Translations under genes and position numbers: made by a program | Assembly: GCA_965228895.1 (NCBI GenBank) | Contig: OZ245842.1 | Coordinates: 3,040,001-3,104,000 of the forward strand | Length of the DNA stretch: 64,000 bases | Reading direction: 5' to 3' | From: Alphaproteobacteria bacterium | GTDB taxonomy: Bacteria > Pseudomonadota > Alphaproteobacteria > SP197 | Part shown: one piece after another, positions 13,003 through 20,469 of the stretch | How positions within the stretch are numbered: the first letter of the stretch is position 1 | Layout: each line of letters opens with the position of its first letter | The notes under the pieces: model-generated | What the model was told of the DNA's origin: nothing | Database searches by the model: none | Seen by the model: only the letters and a program-made list of their open reading frames with translations

Positions 13003-14415
13003 ATGGGCGCCATGGCCGAGAACAGAACCGACGACGTTCGCCGCTATGCAGAAGAGCAGTTCCAGCAGACGCTGAAGCGGTTGAGCGGTTACATCGCCTT
13101 TCCCGCCATTTCGTCCGACCCCGATCACGCCAAGGATGTCGTGGCGCTGGCGCACAAGATCCGCGACGACCTGGAAGCCTTGGGTTTCGATAAGGCGCGT
13201 GTGTTGGAGTTGGACGGCGCGCTGCCCTCGGTCGCCGCCGAGCGCATGGATGGCGGCCCCGGCAAACCGACGGTTCTGATTTACGGTCACATGGATTTGC
13301 AGCCGGTCAAAGGCGAGCCGTGGAACACACCGCCCCATGAGACGGTCGAAATTGACGGCCGGCTGTACGCCCGCGGCTCCGGCGACGATATGGGCGGTTG
13401 GGTCAGCCACCTCGCCGCCATCGAAGCGTGGCTTGCTGTCGTCGGCACGCTGCCAGTCAACGTCAAGCTGATCATCGAGGGTGAAGAGGAGATCGGCTCG
13501 CCCAACCTGGTGGGTTACATGGACGCCTATCCCGACGTGTTCGACGCCGACGTCATGGTGCTGACCGATTGCGACAACCCGTCAACGGAAATTCCCGGGC
13601 TGACGACATCGCTGCGCGGTCTGTTGGAGATGGACGTGACGTGCGAGGCGTTGGAGTCCGATGTGCATTCCGGCATTTGGGGCAACGTCGCACCGGATGT
13701 GTCGACAACTTTGGTCAAGGCATTGGCGCGCCTCGTCGACGATGACGGTCGGTTTGCGCTGGGCCGTGTCGATGTGCCGAAAGCCTGGCGCGACACCGCG
13801 CGCGAGCTGCCGTTCGATGCGGCCACTGTCGAGAAAGGCGCACACATCATCGACGGTGTCACGGCCTTGCCCGAGCGTGGCCGCACGCTCGCCGAATGGG
13901 CGTGGCGGCAATCGGCACTCACCATCCTTTCGACGACCTTGCCTCGGCCAGGACGCGAGAAGAACGCGTTGCGTCATGCGGCGACGGCGTCATTGTCGAT
14001 CCGCGTCGCGCCAGGCCAGGATCCCGACGCGCTCGCGGCGGCAGTCATCGAAACACTGACCGACGACCCGCCCGGCGGCGTCAAGCTCACGGTCAGCGAA
14101 CGTCCGGGCCACGGCGATGCCTGGCTCTATGAACCCAAAGGCCCCGCTTTCGAGGCAGCCGGGCGCGCCTACCGCAAAGCCTGGGGGCACGACCTCATGC
14201 AGATCGGCATCGGCGGGTCGATACCGTTCGTCGCGCTGTTCGCCGAACGCTTCTCTCACCTGCCACTGATCTTGAACGGCGTGCTGGATCCCGCCAGCTC
14301 GATTCACGGCCCCAACGAATCCATGGACCTCGGCGTGTTCAAAAAGGCAATCGCGACGAACGTCTACCTGTTGGCCGAACTTAGCGCGCTGAACGACCTG
14401 ACAGCCGCACCCTGA
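13003..14415 (+). CDS. M20 family dipeptidase/metallopeptidase
   Basis: YGHMDLQP, ARGSGDDMG, EGEEEIGS, HSG, GGSIP, HGPNES. Confidence 0.92.
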   Translation: MGAMAENRTDDVRRYAEEQFQQTLKRLSGYIAFPAISSDPDHAKDVVALAHKIRDDLEALGFDKARVLELDGALPSVAAERMDGGPGKPTVLIYGHMDLQPVKGEPWNTPPHETVEIDGRLYARGSGDDMGGWVSHLAAIEAWLAVVGTLPVNVKLIIEGEEEIGSPNLVGYMDAYPDVFDADVMVLTDCDNPSTEIPGLTTSLRGLLEMDVTCEALESDVHSGIWGNVAPDVSTTLVKALARLVDDDGRFALGRVDVPKAWRDTARELPFDAATVEKGAHIIDGVTALPERGRTLAEWAWRQSALTILSTTLPRPGREKNALRHAATASLSIRVAPGQDPDALAAAVIETLTDDPPGGVKLTVSERPGHGDAWLYEPKGPAFEAAGRAYRKAWGHDLMQIGIGGSIPFVALFAERFSHLPLILNGVLDPASSIHGPNESMDLGVFKKAIATNVYLLAELSALNDLTAAP

Positions 14416-14563
14416 CAGCGGTTTTGCGCTGTTTGCCGTTATCACCGTGCGTACACCGCTTATCAAGCCACGGTGAAGTCGCCGTGCATGCCGTTGATGT
14501 CGTGATCTCGCCGCTTACGTAGAGGTAGGGACCGGGAATGCTTTAACTGCATGGACCGGCACG

Positions 14564-14683
14564 ATGAACGACAAACACACCACCTCCTCCTTATCCGGAT
14601 GGCGCGAACTGATCGTCTATTGCGGTTTCGCCACCGTGGTTTCCGTCGCCAATGTGGGCGTCGCGATGCTGGTGCTGTTCTAG
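14564..14683 (+). CDS. 39-aa membrane micropeptide, WREL family copy 1 (MNDKHTTSSLSGWRELIVYCGFATVVSVANVGVAMLVLF)
   Basis: Hand-translated; homologous to ORFs at 15936 and 17594; GGAC upstream; below the ORF-track cutoff. Confidence 0.75.
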   Translation: MNDKHTTSSLSGWRELIVYCGFATVVSVANVGVAMLVLF

Positions 14684-14728
14684 CAGCGAGCCAGCGTTCT
14701 GCCCCGACCGGCACAAGGAGGCGTACCC

Positions 14729-15766
14729 ATGCCCCGACGAACGATCGTTCTTTTACTGAGATGGTTGCCCGCCGTGTTGGCGACGGGCTGGCTGGCCAGC
14801 TTTATCTGGGACACCGACAGCGGCGGCGCGGTCGAGACCATACCAATCGACCAAGGCGTGGTGCGTGTCTTCGTGACCGGGCCGCGTGGTGACGTTACGG
14901 GCACCGGTCTGGTGGTCGACGGCAACGGCCACGTCGCGACGAACTTCCACGTCATCCAATCGCATCTGGAGAACGGCTGGCCGCTGGGCGTCGGTGAACC
15001 CGGCCGCGGCAGCGACGAGCGGTTGGCCGCGACCGTTGTCGCCGCTTATCAGGGCGAGGACCTCGCCATTCTGCATGTCGAGAATCTCGACACTCTACCT
15101 GTCACTTTTGCCGCACCAACCGATGATGCCTTGGGTAAGGGCGCGGATGTCTTTGCGATTGGCTATCCAGGCGCGGCCGACCGGTTGGGTCCCGCCGATG
15201 ACGCCAGTCTGGCGCCGGGCATTGTCAGCCGCATCTTTGCCGGCCCGTGGTCCGACGGCGGTCCGATGATCGGTATCATCCAGCACACCGCGCCGACCAA
15301 CCCGGGCAACAGCGGCGGTCCGCTGGTTGATGCCTGTGGCCATGTCGTCGGCATCAACTCGCAGCGCGAAGTCAGAATGATTTTAGGTCCAGGCGGTGTA
15401 CCGCTGGTTACCGACCCAATCCAGGGTGTGTTCTACGCATCCGCAGCAGCAACGCTGGTCGAGAAGCTTCGCGATCTCGGCGTGAGCTATGTATCGGCGC
15501 CAGGCATGTGCGGCCCGGTCGGGTCGTCGACCACGCGGGAACCTGCGTTCGGATCGTGGATGGCGGTGTTGTTGATCGCGGCAGCGTCGGGCGCGGTTGC
15601 AATCATGAGACCGAAACCCGGCGTTCGCGTGATGGTCGATTGTGGCGCCTTTGTTGGCGACTGCGCCAAAGCCGTCGCCCGCACCGCCAAACACCTTAAC
15701 GCCGACGACCGCGGCCGCGATGTCGAGATCGTCATGATCCCCGACAGGCGCTCTCCTGACAGATGA
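14729..15766 (+). CDS. Trypsin-like (S1) serine protease with N- and C-terminal hydrophobic segments
   Basis: Catalytic TNFHV, DLA, GNSGGP; AGGAGG RBS. Confidence 0.9.
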   Translation: MPRRTIVLLLRWLPAVLATGWLASFIWDTDSGGAVETIPIDQGVVRVFVTGPRGDVTGTGLVVDGNGHVATNFHVIQSHLENGWPLGVGEPGRGSDERLAATVVAAYQGEDLAILHVENLDTLPVTFAAPTDDALGKGADVFAIGYPGAADRLGPADDASLAPGIVSRIFAGPWSDGGPMIGIIQHTAPTNPGNSGGPLVDACGHVVGINSQREVRMILGPGGVPLVTDPIQGVFYASAAATLVEKLRDLGVSYVSAPGMCGPVGSSTTREPAFGSWMAVLLIAAASGAVAIMRPKPGVRVMVDCGAFVGDCAKAVARTAKHLNADDRGRDVEIVMIPDRRSPDR

Positions 15767-15792
15767 CGAAGAGCGGGCCGCTGTTCGCAATC

Positions 15793-15867
15793 GTTGATGG
15801 CGGTCACAAAATGTGGCGAGAACGTGCCGCCAATCCTCGCAGTGACATCAATGTGATGCCGGTCAAT
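15793..15867. promoter_or_regulatory. Two CRP/FNR-like boxes (GTTGA-N6-TCACA 15793-15808; TGTGA-N6-TCAAT 15852-15867)
   Basis: Half-sites match CRP (TGTGA) and FNR (TTGA) consensus with N6 spacing; same box recurs at 17508. Confidence 0.5.
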
Positions 15868-15935
15868 TGCATCGGAATGGCGCGAATCCTACGTATCACC
15901 CATAGAGCGCGGTGACGGTTAGACGGACAAAATCG

Positions 15936-16055
15936 ATGAACAAGAAAAGCAACAACAAGGGTTCAGGCAACTGGCGGGAGCTGGTGCTTTACACCGGCCT
16001 CGGCACCATGGTTTGTGTCGTCAATGTGGCGCTGTCGTCGCTGCTGCTGTTCTAG
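15936..16055 (+). CDS. 39-aa membrane micropeptide, WREL family copy 2 (MNKKSNNKGSGNWRELVLYTGLGTMVCVVNVALSSLLLF)
   Basis: Hand-translated; ungapped 27-residue alignment with copies 1 and 3; stop overlaps the stop of the convergent gene. Confidence 0.78.
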   Translation: MNKKSNNKGSGNWRELVLYTGLGTMVCVVNVALSSLLLF

Positions 16056-17215
16056 GCATTCGACGGCCATGGCGCGGTGAGCCATGCCGCGTCCATATCC
16101 GCAGCGCGCGGACAGCCGAGTTCCCCCAGCACGTGCAAGAGTTCCTGACGTAGGATCTCGATCACATGGTCGCCGCCGGCCTCACCCAGCGCCGCGATCG
16201 CGAACATGAAGCTGCGTCCGCTGAACGTGAACTGGGCGCCGCGCGCCAGCCCGCGCACCACATCGAGACCAGTTCTAATCCCGCTATCCAGCATTACCGT
16301 TGTCTTGTCGCCGACCGCCTCGACGATCTCGGGCAGGATGTCGATGGTCGCACGTTCGCCATCGAGCTGCCGGCCACCGTGGTTCGAGACGATGATGCCG
16401 TCGGCGCCCAGGTCGACGACCAGTCGCGCATCGTCGGGATGCTGGATGCCCTTCACGATCAGCGGCCCCTGCCACTGGCGCCTGATGTCGCCGAAGTGCT
16501 CGCGCGACATCGGACCCGTGAACTGACGCCCCAGGAAGGTCACGCTTTCCTTCATGTCCATCTTGTTGTCGACATAGGGCTCGACCGTGCGGAAATACGG
16601 CAAGCCGTGGCGCAGGGTCGCGATCGACCAAGCCGGCGCCAAAGCCGCTTGTACGAAGTTTCGCCAGGTGATGCGCGGCGGGACCGAGAAACCGTTGCGG
16701 ATGTCGCGTGTACGGCGCGCCTGCACCGGCACGTCGATGGTGACGATCATGGCGCCGAAACCGGACGCCTGGGCGCGGCTGATCAGATCCTTTTCGATGG
16801 TTCGGTCGGCCGGCGGATAAAGCTGGAACCACGCGTGATCGCCGCCGATGGCGCCGATTTCCTCCATGACGGCCGTCGAAACCGTGCTGAGCAAATACGG
16901 AATGCCGGCGCGTTTGGCCGCGCGGGCCAGCATCGCTTCGACCCCCGGCCACACCAGACCGGCCTGGCCGATCGGCGCCACGCCAATCGGCAGGGCATAT
17001 CTTGTACCGAAGACGTCCATGGAAAGGTCTGTGTCGCAGACGTCGACGAAAAATCGCGGCGTCATCAAGACCCGATCGAAGGCCTCCCGATTGCGCGCCA
17101 CCAAACGCTCCTGCCCCGAACCGCCGGCCAGATAATCCCAGGCAAACCGCGGGATACGCCGGCAAGCCCGACGCTCCAGGTCGGCGACGGAGGGGTAGCG
17201 CTGCATCAACGTCAT
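16052..17215 (-). CDS. FMN-dependent alpha-hydroxy acid dehydrogenase (L-lactate dehydrogenase-like)
   Basis: WFQLY, VTIDVP, IVKGI, VSNHGGRQLD, DSGIRTGLD. Confidence 0.93.
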   Translation of the reverse strand: MTLMQRYPSVADLERRACRRIPRFAWDYLAGGSGQERLVARNREAFDRVLMTPRFFVDVCDTDLSMDVFGTRYALPIGVAPIGQAGLVWPGVEAMLARAAKRAGIPYLLSTVSTAVMEEIGAIGGDHAWFQLYPPADRTIEKDLISRAQASGFGAMIVTIDVPVQARRTRDIRNGFSVPPRITWRNFVQAALAPAWSIATLRHGLPYFRTVEPYVDNKMDMKESVTFLGRQFTGPMSREHFGDIRRQWQGPLIVKGIQHPDDARLVVDLGADGIIVSNHGGRQLDGERATIDILPEIVEAVGDKTTVMLDSGIRTGLDVVRGLARGAQFTFSGRSFMFAIAALGEAGGDHVIEILRQELLHVLGELGCPRAADMDAAWLTAPWPSNA

Positions 17216-17235
17216 GGGCGATGTCCCTGAACAAC

Positions 17236-17374
17236 GAGAGCGGATCATGGTTAGGTGGAACCGTTTGACGGTTCCACCTAACCATGTGAATCCACTCTCT
17301 ATCTATGAATAGAGCAGATTCACCCGTCTTGATGCCATCGCGGAGCGATTCCATCAAAACAGGATCTGCTCTAG
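17236..17374 (-). repeat. Double-hairpin intergenic repeat element, copy A
   Basis: TAGAGCAGAT...ATCTGCTCTA stem plus an 18-bp perfect stem ATGGTTAGGTGGAACCGT/ACGGTTCCACCTAACCAT; homologous to 24247-24383. Confidence 0.8.
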
Positions 17375-17507
17375 AGGCCGAGAGGTTAGCCGGGATCGCC
17401 GCTACGAACAGCGGGTCGAACGAATCAAACCGGCCGGACGGCCGCCGACTACTCCGTTAGTAGTATATTAAGGAATTTGGGTTAAGCGTTGATTCGCCAG
17501 CAGAAAG

Positions 17508-17543
17508 TGTGATGGCCATCAATTGTCTGGCATGTGACTTGCA
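17508..17543 (+). promoter_or_regulatory. TGTGA-N6-TCAAT box followed by sigma54 -24/-12 promoter TGGCATGTGACTTGCA
   Basis: GG(17529-30)-N10-GC(17541-42) with TTGCA, about 50 nt upstream of micropeptide copy 3. Confidence 0.65.
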
Positions 17544-17593
17544 CTAAGGATAGCGGTGACGAAAACTCTTACCGGGCAGGACGGCCCACGGTC

Positions 17594-17707
17594 ATGAAAC
17601 AAAAGAAACAGGGATCGCCGAACTGGCGGGAACTCGCCGTCTACAGCCTGATCGCCACCGGGATCACCGTCGTCAACATCACCATCTCCTCGCTGCTTTT
17701 CTTCTAG
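17594..17707 (+). CDS. 37-aa membrane micropeptide, WREL family copy 3 (MKQKKQGSPNWRELAVYSLIATGITVVNITISSLLFF)
   Basis: Hand-translated; AGGA upstream; GC-rich third positions in the membrane segment; homologous to copies 1 and 2. Confidence 0.8.
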   Translation: MKQKKQGSPNWRELAVYSLIATGITVVNITISSLLFF

Positions 17708-17778
17708 ACCCCGTCCCTATCTTGTACACGGGCCGGCCGGTCTTGAACCGGCGTGGCACATGACGCGCATCTGATCAT

Positions 17779-18774
17779 CTAGTCGCGGCAATCGAACGCG
17801 GCCCACAGGGGGTAGTGATCGGACAGCCGGTGCTGCACAACGGACTTCGAGAAACCTTTGTCCTGATAGAGAAACGGCACGAAGTCGACCATGCCGGCGC
17901 TGTCGAACGTCATGTTCAGACGCCGTTTCCTGCCCGACGTGAACCACGCGATCTGGTCATAGTACTTTTCGAGCTGGGCATCGTTGTCATCAGCAAAAAT
18001 CGAGCGCTTAACCTTGTGCAACGCATCGGGCACCTCAAGGCCCGTGCTGGTAAACGCCTTCCATAGCGGGTCGCCATGCCGGTCGATGTTGAAATCGCCG
18101 AGCGCAATGAAGTTCTGGCCATAGGCATTGGCTTGTTTGGCCCAGCGATCGAGCCATTCGGCGATTGCCTTGAGCTCGGGCACCCGCCCGGACGAAGACT
18201 TGCCGAAGTCGACATGAAGCGTCACCAGGGTGAACGTCTCCGAACCCGCCTGAAAACTCACCGCATAGGGCGTACGCGCGAACTGGCGCTGCAGGGCGTC
18301 AGAACCAACCGCGCCCAGTTCCTCTTCCGGCACCACGAGTTCACCGGCGAGACCCGATAGATTGGCCCGCGTCGTATCGAAGATGAAACCCATACGCTCG
18401 CTGTTACCGGCGTTGCCACGGGTGACGTCGGTCATCAAAAACCGCCACGACGGTCCCAGCGTCTTCATCATGGTGCGAAGCGCGCGCAGATCGCCTTTGA
18501 TCTCCTGGATCGCAATGACGTCGAAACGCGAGACGATCTCGGTGATCGCCCACAAACCGCGAAAATCCCGCTTGGGGCTGTCGCTGCCCGATGCCGTCCA
18601 TTTGCGGGTCAACGACGAGAACGCCTTGATGTTCCATGTCGCGATCAGAAGGTTACGGTCGGCCTGGCGCTTCGGCGGGACCGTTGCGTCCAGCTCGGCG
18701 CGCAGCGCCGTCATTTCGTCTTTCACCGCAGCCGGCGAAGCAGCGGCTTGCCATGATGGCAAGGGATCGGACAT
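17779..18774 (-). CDS. Endonuclease/exonuclease/phosphatase (EEP) family protein
   Basis: IATWNI, DVIAIQE, RTPY, LGDFN, YDQI, SDHYP. Confidence 0.9.
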   Translation of the reverse strand: MSDPLPSWQAAASPAAVKDEMTALRAELDATVPPKRQADRNLLIATWNIKAFSSLTRKWTASGSDSPKRDFRGLWAITEIVSRFDVIAIQEIKGDLRALRTMMKTLGPSWRFLMTDVTRGNAGNSERMGFIFDTTRANLSGLAGELVVPEEELGAVGSDALQRQFARTPYAVSFQAGSETFTLVTLHVDFGKSSSGRVPELKAIAEWLDRWAKQANAYGQNFIALGDFNIDRHGDPLWKAFTSTGLEVPDALHKVKRSIFADDNDAQLEKYYDQIAWFTSGRKRRLNMTFDSAGMVDFVPFLYQDKGFSKSVVQHRLSDHYPLWAAFDCRD

Positions 18775-18881: not shown

Positions 18882-19853
18882 TTAGAGGCTCTCGCCGCCG
18901 GCGGCCGGGATCTCCTCGGTGTCGCCATCACCTGTGGCCGCGGAGGCATCGGTGTCATCGGCGCCAAGGCCGTCGGCCTCGCTCGCACCACCGGCCGCTT
19001 GGCTGGGCAGCGGCACCGTCCACTCGCCGTCGACGACGCGGCCCATCTCGAGGATCAGATCGCGCGGCACATCGCCGATCAGGCTGTAGGAGCGTCCGGC
19101 GGTGCGCCAAAAGAGTGCGCTGACCAACCCCTCCTCCATCACCGTCAGGCTCGTCTCGCTGCTTTCCGCATCCGGACTATAGAAGAGTTCGACCCGCCGG
19201 CCGGCTTCGGACTCGTAGACCAGCTGCATCGCGCTCTCGTCGCTTTCCGAGAGCAGCCGGGCGCCAACGAGATTGAAGCCGAACACGCTGAAGTCCGGCG
19301 CGCCGTGCCCAGGCGCCGCTGGTTCGGCCGTACCGTCTTCCAGCACGGTTGTTGTCGCATCCGCAGCCGAACCGTCGTCGGAAACCTGTTGTACCGTGGC
19401 AGCGTCATCACCCTGCCCCGTCGAGAACAGGGCGAAGAGATCCTGATCGGCTGGACCGCCGATCACCGCGCGCAAGCCAACGGCGATCGCGCCCAACATC
19501 ACGACGGCAAAAACGGCGGCAGCGGCAAGCTGCAGGGGCAGCCGCAGCCAGTCGGCGCGATAACCCTGCCGGATCTCGTTGCCCTGGCTGGCCCGTTCGA
19601 TCGCCAAGCCCAGCTCGACATGCTGGGGCGGCAACGGCGCCTCCAGCCGCTTGTCGAACAGGCGATGCAGGTCCTGGCGGATCAGCCGCCCGCTGCGCAC
19701 ATAGGCCGCAGCCTCCGCATCCGCCAGCAGATAGCGTTCGACCGCCTCGCGTTCGGTGTCGTCCAGTTCGCCATCCAGATAGGCATCAAGCACGCCGTCG
19801 CCCCACGGCACCTGTTTGCCGCCCTGGTTCGCGTCCCTGTCGCTTGTGTCCAT
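18882..19853 (-). CDS. Transmembrane anti-sigma factor
   Basis: LDAYLDGEL N-terminal anti-sigma domain, one TM helix, APDFS..GFNLVGARLL...QLVYE...FW periplasmic domain, acidic tail; immediately after the ECF sigma. Confidence 0.87.
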   Translation of the reverse strand: MDTSDRDANQGGKQVPWGDGVLDAYLDGELDDTEREAVERYLLADAEAAAYVRSGRLIRQDLHRLFDKRLEAPLPPQHVELGLAIERASQGNEIRQGYRADWLRLPLQLAAAAVFAVVMLGAIAVGLRAVIGGPADQDLFALFSTGQGDDAATVQQVSDDGSAADATTTVLEDGTAEPAAPGHGAPDFSVFGFNLVGARLLSESDESAMQLVYESEAGRRVELFYSPDAESSETSLTVMEEGLVSALFWRTAGRSYSLIGDVPRDLILEMGRVVDGEWTVPLPSQAAGGASEADGLGADDTDASAATGDGDTEEIPAAGGESL

Positions 19854-19854
19854 A

Positions 19855-20412
19855 TCAGTTGATCTCCGCCAGCTTCGGCCGTTCAGCCTTGTCCATGCCG
19901 TTCATCAGTGCGCGGCGTGCCCGCGACAGCCGCGACATCACCGTACCGATCGGGATATCCAGGATGTCAGCAGTCTGCCGGTAACTGAACCCTTCCAGAC
20001 ATACGAGTAGAATCACGGCTCTTTGTTCCATGGGCAGCCGCGATATGGCCAAAAAAAGTTCGTTGAGCTGCACCGCGTGTTCCTGGTTGGCGGCGACCGG
20101 CAGTTCCATGGTCAGGTCTTCCATGGCGATGTGGTCGCCGTCACGGCCGTAGCGCAGTTGCGACACCCTGACATTGTGCAGGATGGTGAAGAGATAGCCG
20201 CGCATGTTGCGAATCTTGCGGCCATCGCGCATCGCGGCCAGCCCACGCTGCAAGGTTTCCTGCACCAGATCATCGGCATCGGCGCTGTTGCCGACCAGCG
20301 ATAGCGCGTAACGGCGAAGCCCTGCGATGCTGCTGCGTAGTTCGTCGGACAAGGATTGCAAGAAGCTGCCCCCGTTCCCCAGCGTTGGCGAACGGGTAGC
20401 TTGGTCTGGCAT
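19855..20412 (-). CDS. ECF RNA polymerase sigma factor (ECF26/PrtI-like)
   Basis: LRRYALSL..ADADDLVQET; LFTILHN; LP.EQR...EGFSY..ADILDIPIGTVMSRLSRAR; start uncertain. Confidence 0.92.
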   Translation of the reverse strand: MPDQATRSPTLGNGGSFLQSLSDELRSSIAGLRRYALSLVGNSADADDLVQETLQRGLAAMRDGRKIRNMRGYLFTILHNVRVSQLRYGRDGDHIAMEDLTMELPVAANQEHAVQLNELFLAISRLPMEQRAVILLVCLEGFSYRQTADILDIPIGTVMSRLSRARRALMNGMDKAERPKLAEIN

Positions 20413-20469
20413 TGGGTAGAGAATGTGGCAAGGCGTGCCGAGGTCGCACTTTTTTTGCCGCGGCACGAT

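What the first reader, a model, noticed from the sequence alone, without database searches (positions are those of the whole stretch)
14564..17707. Family of three unannotated paralogous 'WREL' membrane micropeptides
Seen: three + strand ORFs of 39, 39 and 37 aa (14564-14683, 15936-16055, 17594-17707), each in a separate intergenic gap and all below the ORF-track cutoff. After a polar, often Lys-rich N-tail they align without gaps over 27 residues: WRELIVYCGFATVVSVANVGVAMLVLF / WRELVLYTGLGTMVCVVNVALSSLLLF / WRELAVYSLIATGITVVNITISSLLFF. Invariant positions are W1 R2 E3 L4 Y7 T12 V16 N18 L24 F27, and all end TTC-TAG. Codons vary synonymously (CGC/CGG, GAA/GAG, CTG/CTC, TAT/TAC, AAT/AAC), which points to selection on the peptide. 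Inference: a single-pass membrane peptide family with a conserved intramembrane Asn/Thr, suggesting oligomerisation or binding to a membrane complex (regulatory subunit, signalling peptide or type I toxin-like). I do not recognise the family.
Basis: partly seen in the sequence, partly recalled or inferred. Interest (0 to 1): 0.9.

Follow-up and report, generated by a model that had tools for sequence, protein, structure and literature searches.

The report
New family of tiny membrane peptides
Three neighbouring genes of 37 to 39 codons encode a real, conserved but rare family of single-helix membrane peptides, and their job is still unknown.

Summary
Three + strand ORFs (14564-14683, 15936-16055, 17594-17707) encode paralogous 39/39/37-aa peptides. 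Each has a polar, Lys-rich tail followed by a 27-residue hydrophobic stretch, WRELxxY...T...N...F-stop.

They are almost certainly genes:
- Their frames are intact in both other genomes of the genus.
- Orthologous dN/dS is 0.07-0.37.
- A profile built without any p1-type sequence finds p1 at E=9e-9 among 116,799 genome frames.
- An exhaustive search of 1.84 billion proteins finds 13 clusters, all short and all ending at the same C-terminal Phe.
- A degenerate DNA pattern pulled 4 metagenome contigs, and 4 of 4 are true members.

No Pfam, NCBIfam, PHROG, PADLOC or PDB match was found. AlphaFold gives one helix (residues 11-36).

Four of six independent lineages carry a CRP/FNR-type box 84-86 nt upstream of the ATG. 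The p3 type also keeps a sigma-54 -24/-12 element.

A modest profile-profile signal links the peptides to helices 1 and 3 of the GtrA/DPMS transmembrane domain.

Best reading: regulated, N-in/C-out small inner-membrane proteins that act through helix-helix contacts with an unidentified partner. Function, partner and translation are unproven. This is a new small-protein family of a known kind, of moderate interest.

The parts
14564..14683 (+). p1: 39-aa peptide gene including its stop (MNDK...WRELIVYCGFATVVSVANVGVAMLVLF)
   Evidence: Orthologues are intact in G001 and G002. dN/dS is 0.20-0.37. A profile lacking the p1 group finds it at E=9e-9.
15936..16055 (+). p2: 39-aa peptide gene including its stop. 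Its stop overlaps the stop of the convergent FMN-dehydrogenase gene (16052-17248, -).
   Evidence: The G002 orthologue has dN/dS 0.07. It was not found at the syntenic site of G001.
17594..17707 (+). p3: 37-aa peptide gene including its stop. It is the member closest to the family consensus.
   Evidence: Orthologues in G001 and G002 have dN/dS 0.17-0.34. The L018 relative lies in the same convergent arrangement with the EEP-family gene. AlphaFold gives a helix at residues 11-36, pLDDT 83.
15852..15867 (+). CRP/FNR-type box TGTGATGCCGGTCAAT, 84 nt upstream of the p2 ATG (inferred operator)
   Evidence: It is identical in G002 and in the same register as the boxes of p3, L015 and L017. The consensus used is recalled, not taken from a tool.
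17508..17523 (+). CRP/FNR-type box TGTGATGGCCATCAAT, 86 nt upstream of the p3 ATG (inferred operator)
   Evidence: It is kept in G001 and G002 as TGTGACGGCCATCAAT. It is not kept in L018.
17528..17543 (+). Sigma-54-type -24/-12 element TGGCATGTGACTTGCA, 66 nt upstream of the p3 ATG (inferred promoter)
   Evidence: G001 and G002 read TGGCACGTGACTTGCA. L018 keeps TGGCA-N6-CTTGC 65 nt upstream of its ATG, although its upstream region is only 45% identical overall. rpoN and six strong enhancer-binding-protein genes are present.
17440..17507 (+). Conserved A+T-rich block upstream of the p3 promoter elements. The whole 17440-17593 region is 91-92% identical within the genus, against 83-85% for the flanking genes. 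It is a candidate activator site.
   Evidence: A sub-motif TTAG-N4-TAT-N-TTAAG is shared with L018. Its function is not tested.

Best explanation
p1, p2 and p3 are translated genes for a previously undescribed family of 36-39-residue bitopic inner-membrane proteins.

Proposed topology: a short, disordered, positively charged N-tail stays in the cytoplasm. The W-R-E-L motif sits at the cytoplasmic interface. One 24-26-residue helix spans the membrane and ends flush with an invariant C-terminal Phe at the periplasmic face (inferred from the positive-inside rule).

Proposed mode of action: like the characterised bacterial small membrane proteins, the peptides bind within the bilayer to a larger membrane protein, or to each other. 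The contact would use the conserved small and polar positions Y7, A11/T12, T15 and N18, and would modulate the partner. The partner is unknown.

Proposed expression: each gene is its own regulated transcription unit. A CRP/FNR-family regulator site lies about 85 nt upstream of the ATG in most lineages, and the p3 lineage also has a sigma-54 promoter. The peptides would therefore be made only under particular conditions.

Shown: the family, its conservation, purifying selection, the predicted single helix and the conserved upstream elements.
Inferred: translation, topology, regulators, partner binding.
For: Real coding genes:
- Frames are intact in 3 of 3 genomes of the genus.
- dN/dS is 0.07-0.37 in 7 orthologous pairs. 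pN/pS is 0.36 for p3/L018 and 0.19 for L016/L017.
- 13 cluster representatives at E<=1e-3 turn up among 1.84e9 proteins, each with the match reaching its own C-terminus.
- 4 of 4 metagenome DNA-pattern hits are open frames ending ...F-stop at the same place.
- 34 sequences, 30 unique cores and 15 clusters at 80% identity have L4, Y7 and F27 invariant and R2, E3, T12 and N18 at 87% or more.

Membrane helix: AlphaFold2 with a 25-row alignment gives a helix at 11-36 with block pLDDT 88-96 and a disordered tail. The tail carries the Lys and Arg residues.

Not a leader peptide: p2 and p3 are followed by convergent genes, and in G002 p1 is followed by p2.

Stand-alone units with their own control:
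- Boxes matching 9 or more of 10 positions of TGTGA-N6-TCA(CA/AT) start 84-86 nt before the ATG in p2 (2 species), p3 (3 species), L015 and L017. That is 4 of 6 independent lineages. The genome-wide rate is 2.5e-5 per position.
- TGTGA-N6-TCAAT occurs 11 times in the genome against 2.8 expected, and two of those sites are these.
- The sigma-54 -24/-12 element is kept in L018 at the same distance, although the upstream region is otherwise 45% identical. rpoN is present.

Neighbours differ between distant members, as expected for an autonomous small gene.
Against: - There is no translation or expression evidence of any kind.
- No partner is identified, and no gene is a conserved neighbour across the distant members.
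- The helical periodicity of conservation peaks at 90-110 degrees but is not significant (703 of 5000 shuffles).
- Shine-Dalgarno sequences are weak in this genus (GGA only), although L015, L017 and L018 have GGAG or AGGA.
- The strict sigma-54 pattern occurs 2 times in the genome against 2.4 expected, so its count alone means nothing.
- The CRP-type box was defined after it was seen, and the lineages share ancestry, so the small probability overstates the case. p1 and L018 lack the box.
- The other 9 genomic TGTGA-N6-TCAAT sites showed no coherent regulon.
- The family is very rare. It was found in 0 of 30 genomes of the other four genera of the order. In the class sample, the one hit outside G000 among 400 other genomes was a GtrA protein, not a member. 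It was found in 0 of 400 genomes of the phylum sample. So it is dispensable for most relatives.
Confidence: 0.55

Rival explanations
1. Type I toxin-like or holin-like membrane-damaging peptides. The small hydrophobic peptides would depolarise or permeabilise the inner membrane when expressed and would be kept in check by RNA-level or transcriptional control.
For: - They are small, hydrophobic and single-helix.
- Three copies lie within 3.2 kb.
- The distribution is patchy and genus-restricted.
- They are tightly regulated rather than constitutive, if the promoter inferences hold.
- Toxic small membrane proteins of similar size are known, for example TimP (PMC7667032, seen only as a search listing and abstract start).
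Against: - No repeated flanking DNA or antisense unit accompanies the copies. Only the coding parts are alike.
- The putative mRNAs fold no better than shuffles, z +1.24 and -0.26.
- No PADLOC or PHROG family matches. There is no plasmid hit, and the single viral pattern hit is a chance match inside a larger non-membrane frame.
- Specific polar positions (R2, E3, Y7, T12, N18) are conserved across 15 clusters. This fits a defined protein contact better than generic membrane damage.
- The orthologues are syntenic and under purifying selection.
Confidence: 0.15
2. A stand-alone relative, derivative or mimic of the odd-numbered helix (TM1/TM3) of GtrA/DPMS-type polyprenyl-phosphate-sugar handling proteins. 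It would act by pairing with a GtrA-like protein or its glycosyltransferase partner in envelope glycosylation.
For: - The only hit outside the genus in the class sample was the N-terminus of a PF04138 protein, NRWRILVLYTAFAAIATLANIV.
- hhalign of the 25-row peptide alignment against 30 GtrA rows scores 25.2, P=7.3e-5, and aligns peptide start to GtrA start. None of 200 helix-column shuffles reach this score, and the reversed alignment scores 14.3.
- Without the two most similar rows, the score is 18.5, P=0.0019, with 1 of 150 shuffles reaching it. The best match then falls on TM3.
- The two best alternative alignments are TM1 and TM3, and nothing aligns to TM2 or TM4.
- The shared pattern is aromatic-x3-small-x3-T-x-V-(N/D).
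Against: - Pfam PF04138 does not match any peptide, even at E<=10.
- The exhaustive profile search returned no protein longer than 85 aa.
- hhalign probability is only 14-62%. Transmembrane helices give spurious profile hits, and column shuffles destroy generic helical periodicity, so this control is lenient.
- The single GtrA gene of this genome lies about 680 kb away.
- There is no room for a decayed remainder of a GtrA gene downstream of p2 or p3.
Confidence: 0.1
3. Exported hydrophobic peptides: leaderless bacteriocin-like, RiPP precursor or signalling peptides.
For: There are several paralogous small peptides in one locus, and in this genome a trypsin-like peptidase gene follows p1 directly.
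Against: - The peptidase gene lies in a 1.1-kb segment that is absent from G002, where p1 and p2 are adjacent.
- No modification enzyme, ABC exporter or immunity gene was seen next to the members in the window, L015, L017 or L018.
- The conserved part is the whole hydrophobic helix, not a leader-plus-variable-core layout.
Confidence: 0.04
4. Not protein-coding: the ORFs are by-products of conserved non-coding DNA or RNA elements, or of a repeat.
For: The p3 upstream region is as conserved as the ORF within the genus, 91-92% against 92-95%. GC-rich genomes carry many spurious ORFs.
Against: - Substitutions are biased to synonymous sites.
- The distant members share the peptide, its length and its stop position, while the surrounding DNA is unalignable.
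- No Rfam family matches and there is no excess RNA structure.
- Only three copies exist in the genome, unlike the 79-copy repeat next door.
Confidence: 0.03

Closest known systems
Characterised bacterial small inner-membrane proteins (AcrZ, MgrB, MgtS, KdpF, CydX; names recalled from general knowledge). [quoted passage not shown]
   Same: Under 50 aa, one transmembrane helix, a stand-alone gene, narrow taxonomic range and condition-specific promoters (inferred).
   Different: There is no sequence relation to any of them. No partner is known. Three paralogues sit in one locus. The C-terminus is invariant and ends on Phe with no extramembrane tail.
Type I toxins and other toxic small membrane proteins (Hok, Ldr and TisB recalled; TimP from PMC7667032, listing only)
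   Same: Size, hydrophobicity and multi-copy occurrence in one chromosome region.
   Different: No antisense RNA locus or repeated flanks and no structured mRNA. The charge is at the N-terminus and not the C-terminus. Polar intramembrane positions are conserved.
GtrA/DPMS transmembrane domain (Pfam PF04138), helices 1 and 3
   Same: The motif aromatic-x3-(G/A)-x3-T-x-V-(N/D) is preceded by a basic stretch. The profile-profile score stands above shuffles, and only TM1 and TM3 align.
   Different: GtrA proteins have four helices in about 120 aa. The peptides have one helix, fail the Pfam model and stop where GtrA continues into its first loop.
Sarcolipin and phospholamban ('regulins' of P-type ATPases; resemblance recalled from memory only)
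   Same: About 30-50 aa, an N-in single helix, an R-E-L-like start of the helix and a functionally important intramembrane Asn (recalled).
   Different: A profile search of all PDB chains at E<=10 did not return them. The best hit was a TRPM2 helix at E=0.068. No P-type ATPase gene was seen beside any member in the ORFs scanned. This is an analogy only.

Membership tests
Any curated protein family (Pfam-A, NCBIfam, PHROGs, PADLOC) | Match to a family model | tested here: not met
   Pfam and NCBIfam gave 0 families for all three peptides at E<=10. PHROGs gave 1 of 13 members at E=0.11 (a tail fibre family, chance), and PADLOC gave 0 of 13.
Bacterial small single-pass membrane proteins (functional class) | 50 aa or fewer, with one hydrophobic transmembrane helix | tested here: met
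   The peptides are 37-39 aa. AlphaFold2 gives a helix at 11-36, pLDDT 83. The core is hydrophobic in 30 unique sequences.
Bacterial small single-pass membrane proteins (functional class) | The peptide is translated and located in the membrane | not testable with these tools
   No RNA run is listed for this DNA, and no proteomics is available. Coding is supported only indirectly, by dN/dS.
Bacterial small single-pass membrane proteins (functional class) | Binds and modulates a larger membrane protein | not tested
   No candidate partner emerged, because the neighbours differ between members. The only complex job (4 copies of p3) gave no verdict.
Type I toxin-antitoxin | An antisense or overlapping small RNA gene accompanies each toxin copy | tested here: inconclusive
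   There is no shared non-coding flank between the three copies and no Rfam hit. An unrecognised antisense RNA cannot be excluded without RNA-seq.
Type I toxin-antitoxin | A highly structured toxin mRNA that masks the start region | tested here: not met
   The putative p3 and p2 transcripts have z-scores of +1.24 and -0.26 against 200 shuffles. The transcript ends are assumed.
Type I toxin-antitoxin | Toxicity on overexpression | not testable with these tools
   This needs an expression experiment.
GtrA/DPMS transmembrane domain (PF04138) | A four-helix domain of about 117 positions that matches the Pfam model | tested here: not met
   The peptides have one helix and no PF04138 hit at E<=10.
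GtrA/DPMS transmembrane domain (PF04138) | Sequence signature of helix 1 or helix 3 | tested here: inconclusive
   hhalign gives P=7.3e-5 (probability 62%), or P=0.0019 (probability 14%) without the two closest rows. 0 of 200 and 1 of 150 shuffles reach these scores. Only TM1 and TM3 align.
Sigma-54-dependent gene (p3 lineage only) | A conserved GG-N10-GC element (TGGCAC-N5-TTGC; consensus recalled) at a fixed distance, with rpoN present | tested here: met
   The element is at window 17528-17543 and in G001, G002 and L018, 65-66 nt upstream of the ATG. rpoN is present. However, the genome-wide count equals chance.
Sigma-54-dependent gene (p3 lineage only) | A cognate enhancer-binding protein and its upstream site | not tested
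   Six strong bEBP genes exist, none within the window. A conserved block at 17440-17507 is a candidate site only.
RiPP or bacteriocin precursor | An adjacent modification, export or immunity gene that is conserved with the peptide | tested here: not met
   The neighbours in the window are M20 peptidase, FMN dehydrogenase and EEP-family genes. In L015, L017 and L018 they are DUF1638, HupE/UreJ, beta-lactamase-family and EEP genes. The trypsin-like gene is an insertion specific to this genome.

The most novel reading that the evidence does not exclude
The peptides are free-standing copies of the GtrA-type 'odd' helix. Under CRP/FNR- or sigma-54-controlled conditions they would insert next to a polyprenyl-phosphate-sugar flippase or glycosyltransferase, or a similar membrane machine, and switch it. 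This would be a bacterial counterpart of the regulin principle, in which a micropeptide that copies one helix of a membrane-protein fold acts as its regulator.

A still bolder variant that the data do not exclude: the invariant, periplasm-exposed aromatic C-terminus (...F-COOH, often F-x-F) is read by a PDZ-type or C-terminal-processing protease as an envelope signal. An ECF sigma gene lies 2 kb away, and a trypsin-like protease gene has landed directly behind p1.
Probability: 0.08. Interest if true: 0.8.

Novelty: new member of a known kind. Interest (0 to 1): 0.45.

Why it matters
Small membrane proteins are systematically missed, and only a few have known mechanisms. This one is a clean case with a sharply defined signature:
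- Invariant L4, Y7 and C-terminal Phe, and a near-invariant intramembrane Asn.
- Three retained paralogues.
- Recognisable promoter elements that say under which regulators to look for expression.
- A possible evolutionary link to one helix of the GtrA fold.

If a partner is found, it would add a new regulator-target pair. It could also show how micropeptides arise from single helices of larger membrane proteins. The family is very rare and its function is unproven, so its present value is as a well-characterised candidate and not as a discovery of mechanism.

Tried and rejected
- Homo-oligomer test (complex prediction, 4 copies of p3 with the 25-row alignment): no verdict, score 0.04 against a mark of 0.42, controls not run. 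I do not count this either way.
- Expression: the look-up of sequencing runs listed 10 runs from 6 studies that hold the DNA, and no RNA holder is listed. Read laying was not used. Several rows with small shares carried metagenome labels. I did not lay them and draw no habitat from them.
The contexts of members on long contigs (P0007 on 195 kb, P0014 on 14.9 kb) could therefore not be fetched.
- Word-index protein search with the 47-aa GTG-start form of p2: 2 proteins only, the window's own and P0004.
- ESM Atlas: best score 0.85, below the 0.9 lead threshold. DUF4027 and YniD-like clusters came at 0.82-0.83. Pfam does not support either.
- PDB sequence profile search: nothing below E=0.068. 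The sarcolipin/phospholamban resemblance that I recalled is therefore only an analogy.
- Helical periodicity of conservation: not significant (703 of 5000 shuffles).
- Sigma-54 reading of the p1 and p2 upstream regions: only partial matches by eye, so I dropped it. Reading the other nine TGTGA-N6-TCAAT sites as a regulon gave no coherent set of downstream genes.
- Phage or plasmid origin: the one viral pattern hit is a chance match (0 of 1 true), and there was no plasmid tblastn hit at E<=1.
- Literature, two searches. Peptide strings NWREL/WRELA/WRELV/WRELI, anywhere in the text, were found in 776 papers; none of the 15 listed is relevant. 'Small membrane proteins / single transmembrane / Alphaproteobacteria / sORF' gave 17 papers, 12 listed, none describing this family. 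I read only listings and abstract starts and opened no paper. Supplements are closed and could hold small-protein lists that I did not see. 'Not described' rests on these two searches plus the family libraries.
- Leader-peptide or uORF reading: rejected, because there is no downstream co-oriented gene for p2 and p3.
This call corrects it, and the content is unchanged.

Full report
**Observation.** The three ORFs exist exactly as described, at 14564-14683 (p1, 39 aa), 15936-16055 (p2, 39 aa) and 17594-17707 (p3, 37 aa), all on the + strand. Each lies in an intergenic gap. The stop of p2 overlaps the stop of the convergent FMN-dehydrogenase gene on a CTAG. All three end TTC-TAG here. Orthologues end TTT-TAG, TTC-TGA or TTC-TAA, so that detail has no meaning.

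**More than chance.**
- The 3-row profile finds only these three places in the 5.53-Mb single-contig genome, and the next best has E=3.
- p2 against p3 gives BLASTP E=1e-13.
- p1 against p3 gives no BLASTP alignment.
- A 22-row profile that contains no p1-type sequence recovers the p1 frame at E=9e-9 among 116,799 stop-to-stop frames, next best E=3.

**Conservation elsewhere.**
- The order holds 33 species genomes in one family. Matches occur in 3 of 33: G000, G001 and G002, all of one genus. None occur in the 30 genomes of the other four genera.
- G002 has all three. G001, a fragmented MAG, has p1 and p3, and its contig does not align with p2 at the syntenic place.
- A class sample gave 2 of 401, namely G000 plus one weak hit that turned out to be a GtrA protein. 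A phylum sample gave 1 of 401, G000 only.
- An exhaustive profile search of 1.84 billion cluster representatives gave 13 proteins at E<=1e-3, 5 of them at E<=1e-10. All are 36-85 aa, and in each the match ends at the protein's last residue. The longer ones carry an internal Met where the short ones start.
- All are from metagenomes or MAGs, named 'hypothetical protein' or unnamed.
- A degenerate DNA pattern for (N/D)WRELxxYxxxATx5N found 4 metagenome contigs. All 4 encode an open frame that ends ...F-stop in register.
- In total I collected 34 sequences, 30 unique cores and 15 clusters at 80% identity. L4, Y7 and F27 are invariant. R2 is at 0.95, E3 at 0.92, N18 at 0.89, and W1 and T12 at 0.87.

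**Coding.** Nei-Gojobori dN/dS for the seven orthologous pairs within the genus is 0.07-0.37. The counts are small, with 1-6.5 non-synonymous and 2-8.5 synonymous differences per pair. pN/pS is 0.36 for p3/L018, 0.19 for L016/L017 and 0.41 for L015/L017. Paralogue comparisons are near saturation. The surrounding DNA of distant members is unalignable, 45% identity upstream for L018, while the peptide, its length and its stop position are kept. There is no Rfam hit in 14300-17900 and no excess RNA structure. I take the genes as real, with probability about 0.9. All three exact peptides are already gene calls in the public protein collection, so 'unannotated' is doubtful.

**Anatomy.** AlphaFold2 with the 25-row alignment gives one helix, residues 11-36 of p3. 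Mean pLDDT is 83, the helix blocks score 88-96, and the first ten residues are disordered. The tail carries the basic residues, and the helix begins with W-R-E-L and ends on the C-terminal Phe with no tail. By the positive-inside rule (established knowledge) this predicts an N-in/C-out topology. Conserved positions (4, 7, 11/12, 15, 18, 24/25) suggest one helix face, but the periodicity test is not significant (703 of 5000 shuffles).

**Locus.** The neighbours by Pfam are a LysR regulator, an M20 peptidase (13003-14415), p1, a trypsin-like peptidase (14729-15766), p2, an FMN-dependent dehydrogenase (16052-17248, -), p3, an EEP-family protein (17779-18774, -), an ORF with no family, and an ECF sigma factor (19855-20466, -). 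Comparison with G002 shows colinearity at 83-85% identity, with two exceptions. Segment 14684-15792, which carries the peptidase gene, is absent from G002, where p1 and p2 are separated by about 220 bp. Segment 17232-17375 is a 138-bp repeat with 79 copies of at least 120 nt in this genome. The basic layout is therefore p1-p2 in tandem, a convergent dehydrogenase gene, then p3 convergent with the EEP gene.

L018 carries a p3-type peptide in the same convergent arrangement with an EEP orthologue (73% identity) but has a beta-lactamase-family gene upstream. L015 and L017 have other neighbours: DUF1638 and an IS200-like transposase, and HupE/UreJ. No neighbour is conserved across the family. p2 and p3 have no co-oriented downstream gene, which excludes a leader-peptide role.

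**Regulation (inferred).** I aligned the upstream regions on the ATG. A box matching 9 or more of 10 positions of TGTGA-N6-TCACA/TCAAT starts 84-86 nt upstream in p2 (G000, G002), p3 (G000, G001, G002), L015 and L017. The consensus is the CRP/FNR family consensus as I recall it. p1 and L018 lack the box. Such boxes occur at 2.5e-5 per position in the genome. TGTGA-N6-TCAAT occurs 11 times against 2.8 expected, and two of those sites are these. The motif was defined after I saw it and the lineages share ancestry, so the formal probability is too optimistic. Even so, its survival in otherwise diverged DNA argues for function.

Immediately downstream, p3 has TGGCATGTGACTTGCA (17528-17543), read as TGGCACGTGACTTGCA in G001 and G002. 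L018 keeps TGGCA-N6-CTTGC at the same distance (65-66 nt) with a different spacer. rpoN and six strong enhancer-binding-protein genes are present, and at least five strong CRP/FNR-family genes exist, none in the window. The genome-wide count of the strict sigma-54 pattern equals chance, 2 against 2.4. Both models put the transcription start about 37-41 nt before the ATG.

**Comparison with known families.** No match was found in Pfam, NCBIfam, PHROGs, PADLOC or PDB sequences (best E=0.068, a TRPM2 helix). The ESM Atlas scores stayed below the lead threshold.

The one weak hit outside the genus led to a lead. It is the N-terminus and first helix of a PF04138 (GtrA/DPMS) protein. I built a GtrA alignment from 29 loci of a 61-genome class sample plus that protein, leaving out the locus from the genome flagged unpublished.
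- hhalign against the peptide alignment scores 25.2 (P=7.3e-5, probability 62%), with peptide start aligned on GtrA start. None of 200 helix-column shuffles reach this, and the reversed alignment scores 14.3.
- Without the two most similar rows, the score is 18.5 (P=0.0019, probability 14%), 1 of 150 shuffles reach it, and the best match falls on helix 3.
- The only two alternative alignments of note are helices 1 and 3, the two equivalent helices of the internal repeat.

This is suggestive of common origin or convergence, but it is not proof. Column shuffles are a lenient control for transmembrane helices.

**Mechanism.** The most likely reading (0.55) is a condition-specific bitopic micropeptide that acts by helix-helix contact with a larger membrane protein or with its paralogues. 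The rivals are a type I toxin-like or holin-like membrane-active peptide (0.15), a GtrA-helix derivative acting on polyprenyl-phosphate glycosylation machinery (0.10, a special case of the main reading), an exported peptide (0.04) and non-coding DNA (0.03). The single complex prediction gave no verdict. No RNA runs were listed.

**Verdict.** This is a new, very rare small-protein family of a known general kind. Interest is moderate, 0.45. It would rise sharply if a partner or the GtrA link were demonstrated.

Noticed in passing
window 14684-15792: A 1.1-kb segment carrying a trypsin-like (Trypsin_2) peptidase gene with hydrophobic N- and C-terminal stretches begins directly after the p1 stop. 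It is absent from the syntenic site of G002. It is either an insertion in this genome or a deletion in G002, and no other copy exists in the genome.
   Followed up: partly
window 17232-17375: A 138-bp element with a perfect terminal hairpin (ggttaggtggaaccg...cggttccacctaacc) is absent from G002 at this site. It is present in 79 copies of at least 120 nt (83-95% identity among those listed) across the genome, so it is a MITE- or REP-like repeat family.
   Followed up: partly
window 16052-16055: The stop codons of p2 (+) and of the FMN-dependent dehydrogenase gene (-) overlap on the palindrome CTAG. The arrangement is kept in G002, and convergent transcription could couple the two genes.
   Followed up: no
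window 18882-20466 (-): An ECF-type sigma factor gene (19855-20466) is followed on the same strand by a 323-aa ORF with no Pfam family (18882-19853), possibly its anti-sigma factor. It lies about 1.2 kb beyond the p3/EEP pair.
   Followed up: no
whole genome (G000): The FNR/FixK-type palindrome TTGAT-N4-ATCAA occurs at 12 sites (24 strand hits) against 1.7 strand hits expected. This points to a sizeable FNR/FixK-type regulon in this organism.
   Followed up: no
L011/L006 (G001 contig), first 311 bases: In G001 the DNA beyond the 3' end of the FMN-dehydrogenase gene does not align with the window, and p2 was not found in that genome (95% complete, about 500 contigs). This is either loss or rearrangement of p2, or an assembly artefact.
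   Followed up: partly
L010 (G265) 555-1908: A GtrA-family gene whose N-terminus resembles the peptides lies divergent and overlapping with a UbiA-family prenyltransferase gene. That pairing is typical of polyprenyl-phosphate sugar pathways.
   Followed up: partly
L015 5111-5809 (-): An IS200-like (Y1_Tnp) transposase gene lies about 1.8 kb from the peptide gene on this metagenome contig.
   Followed up: no
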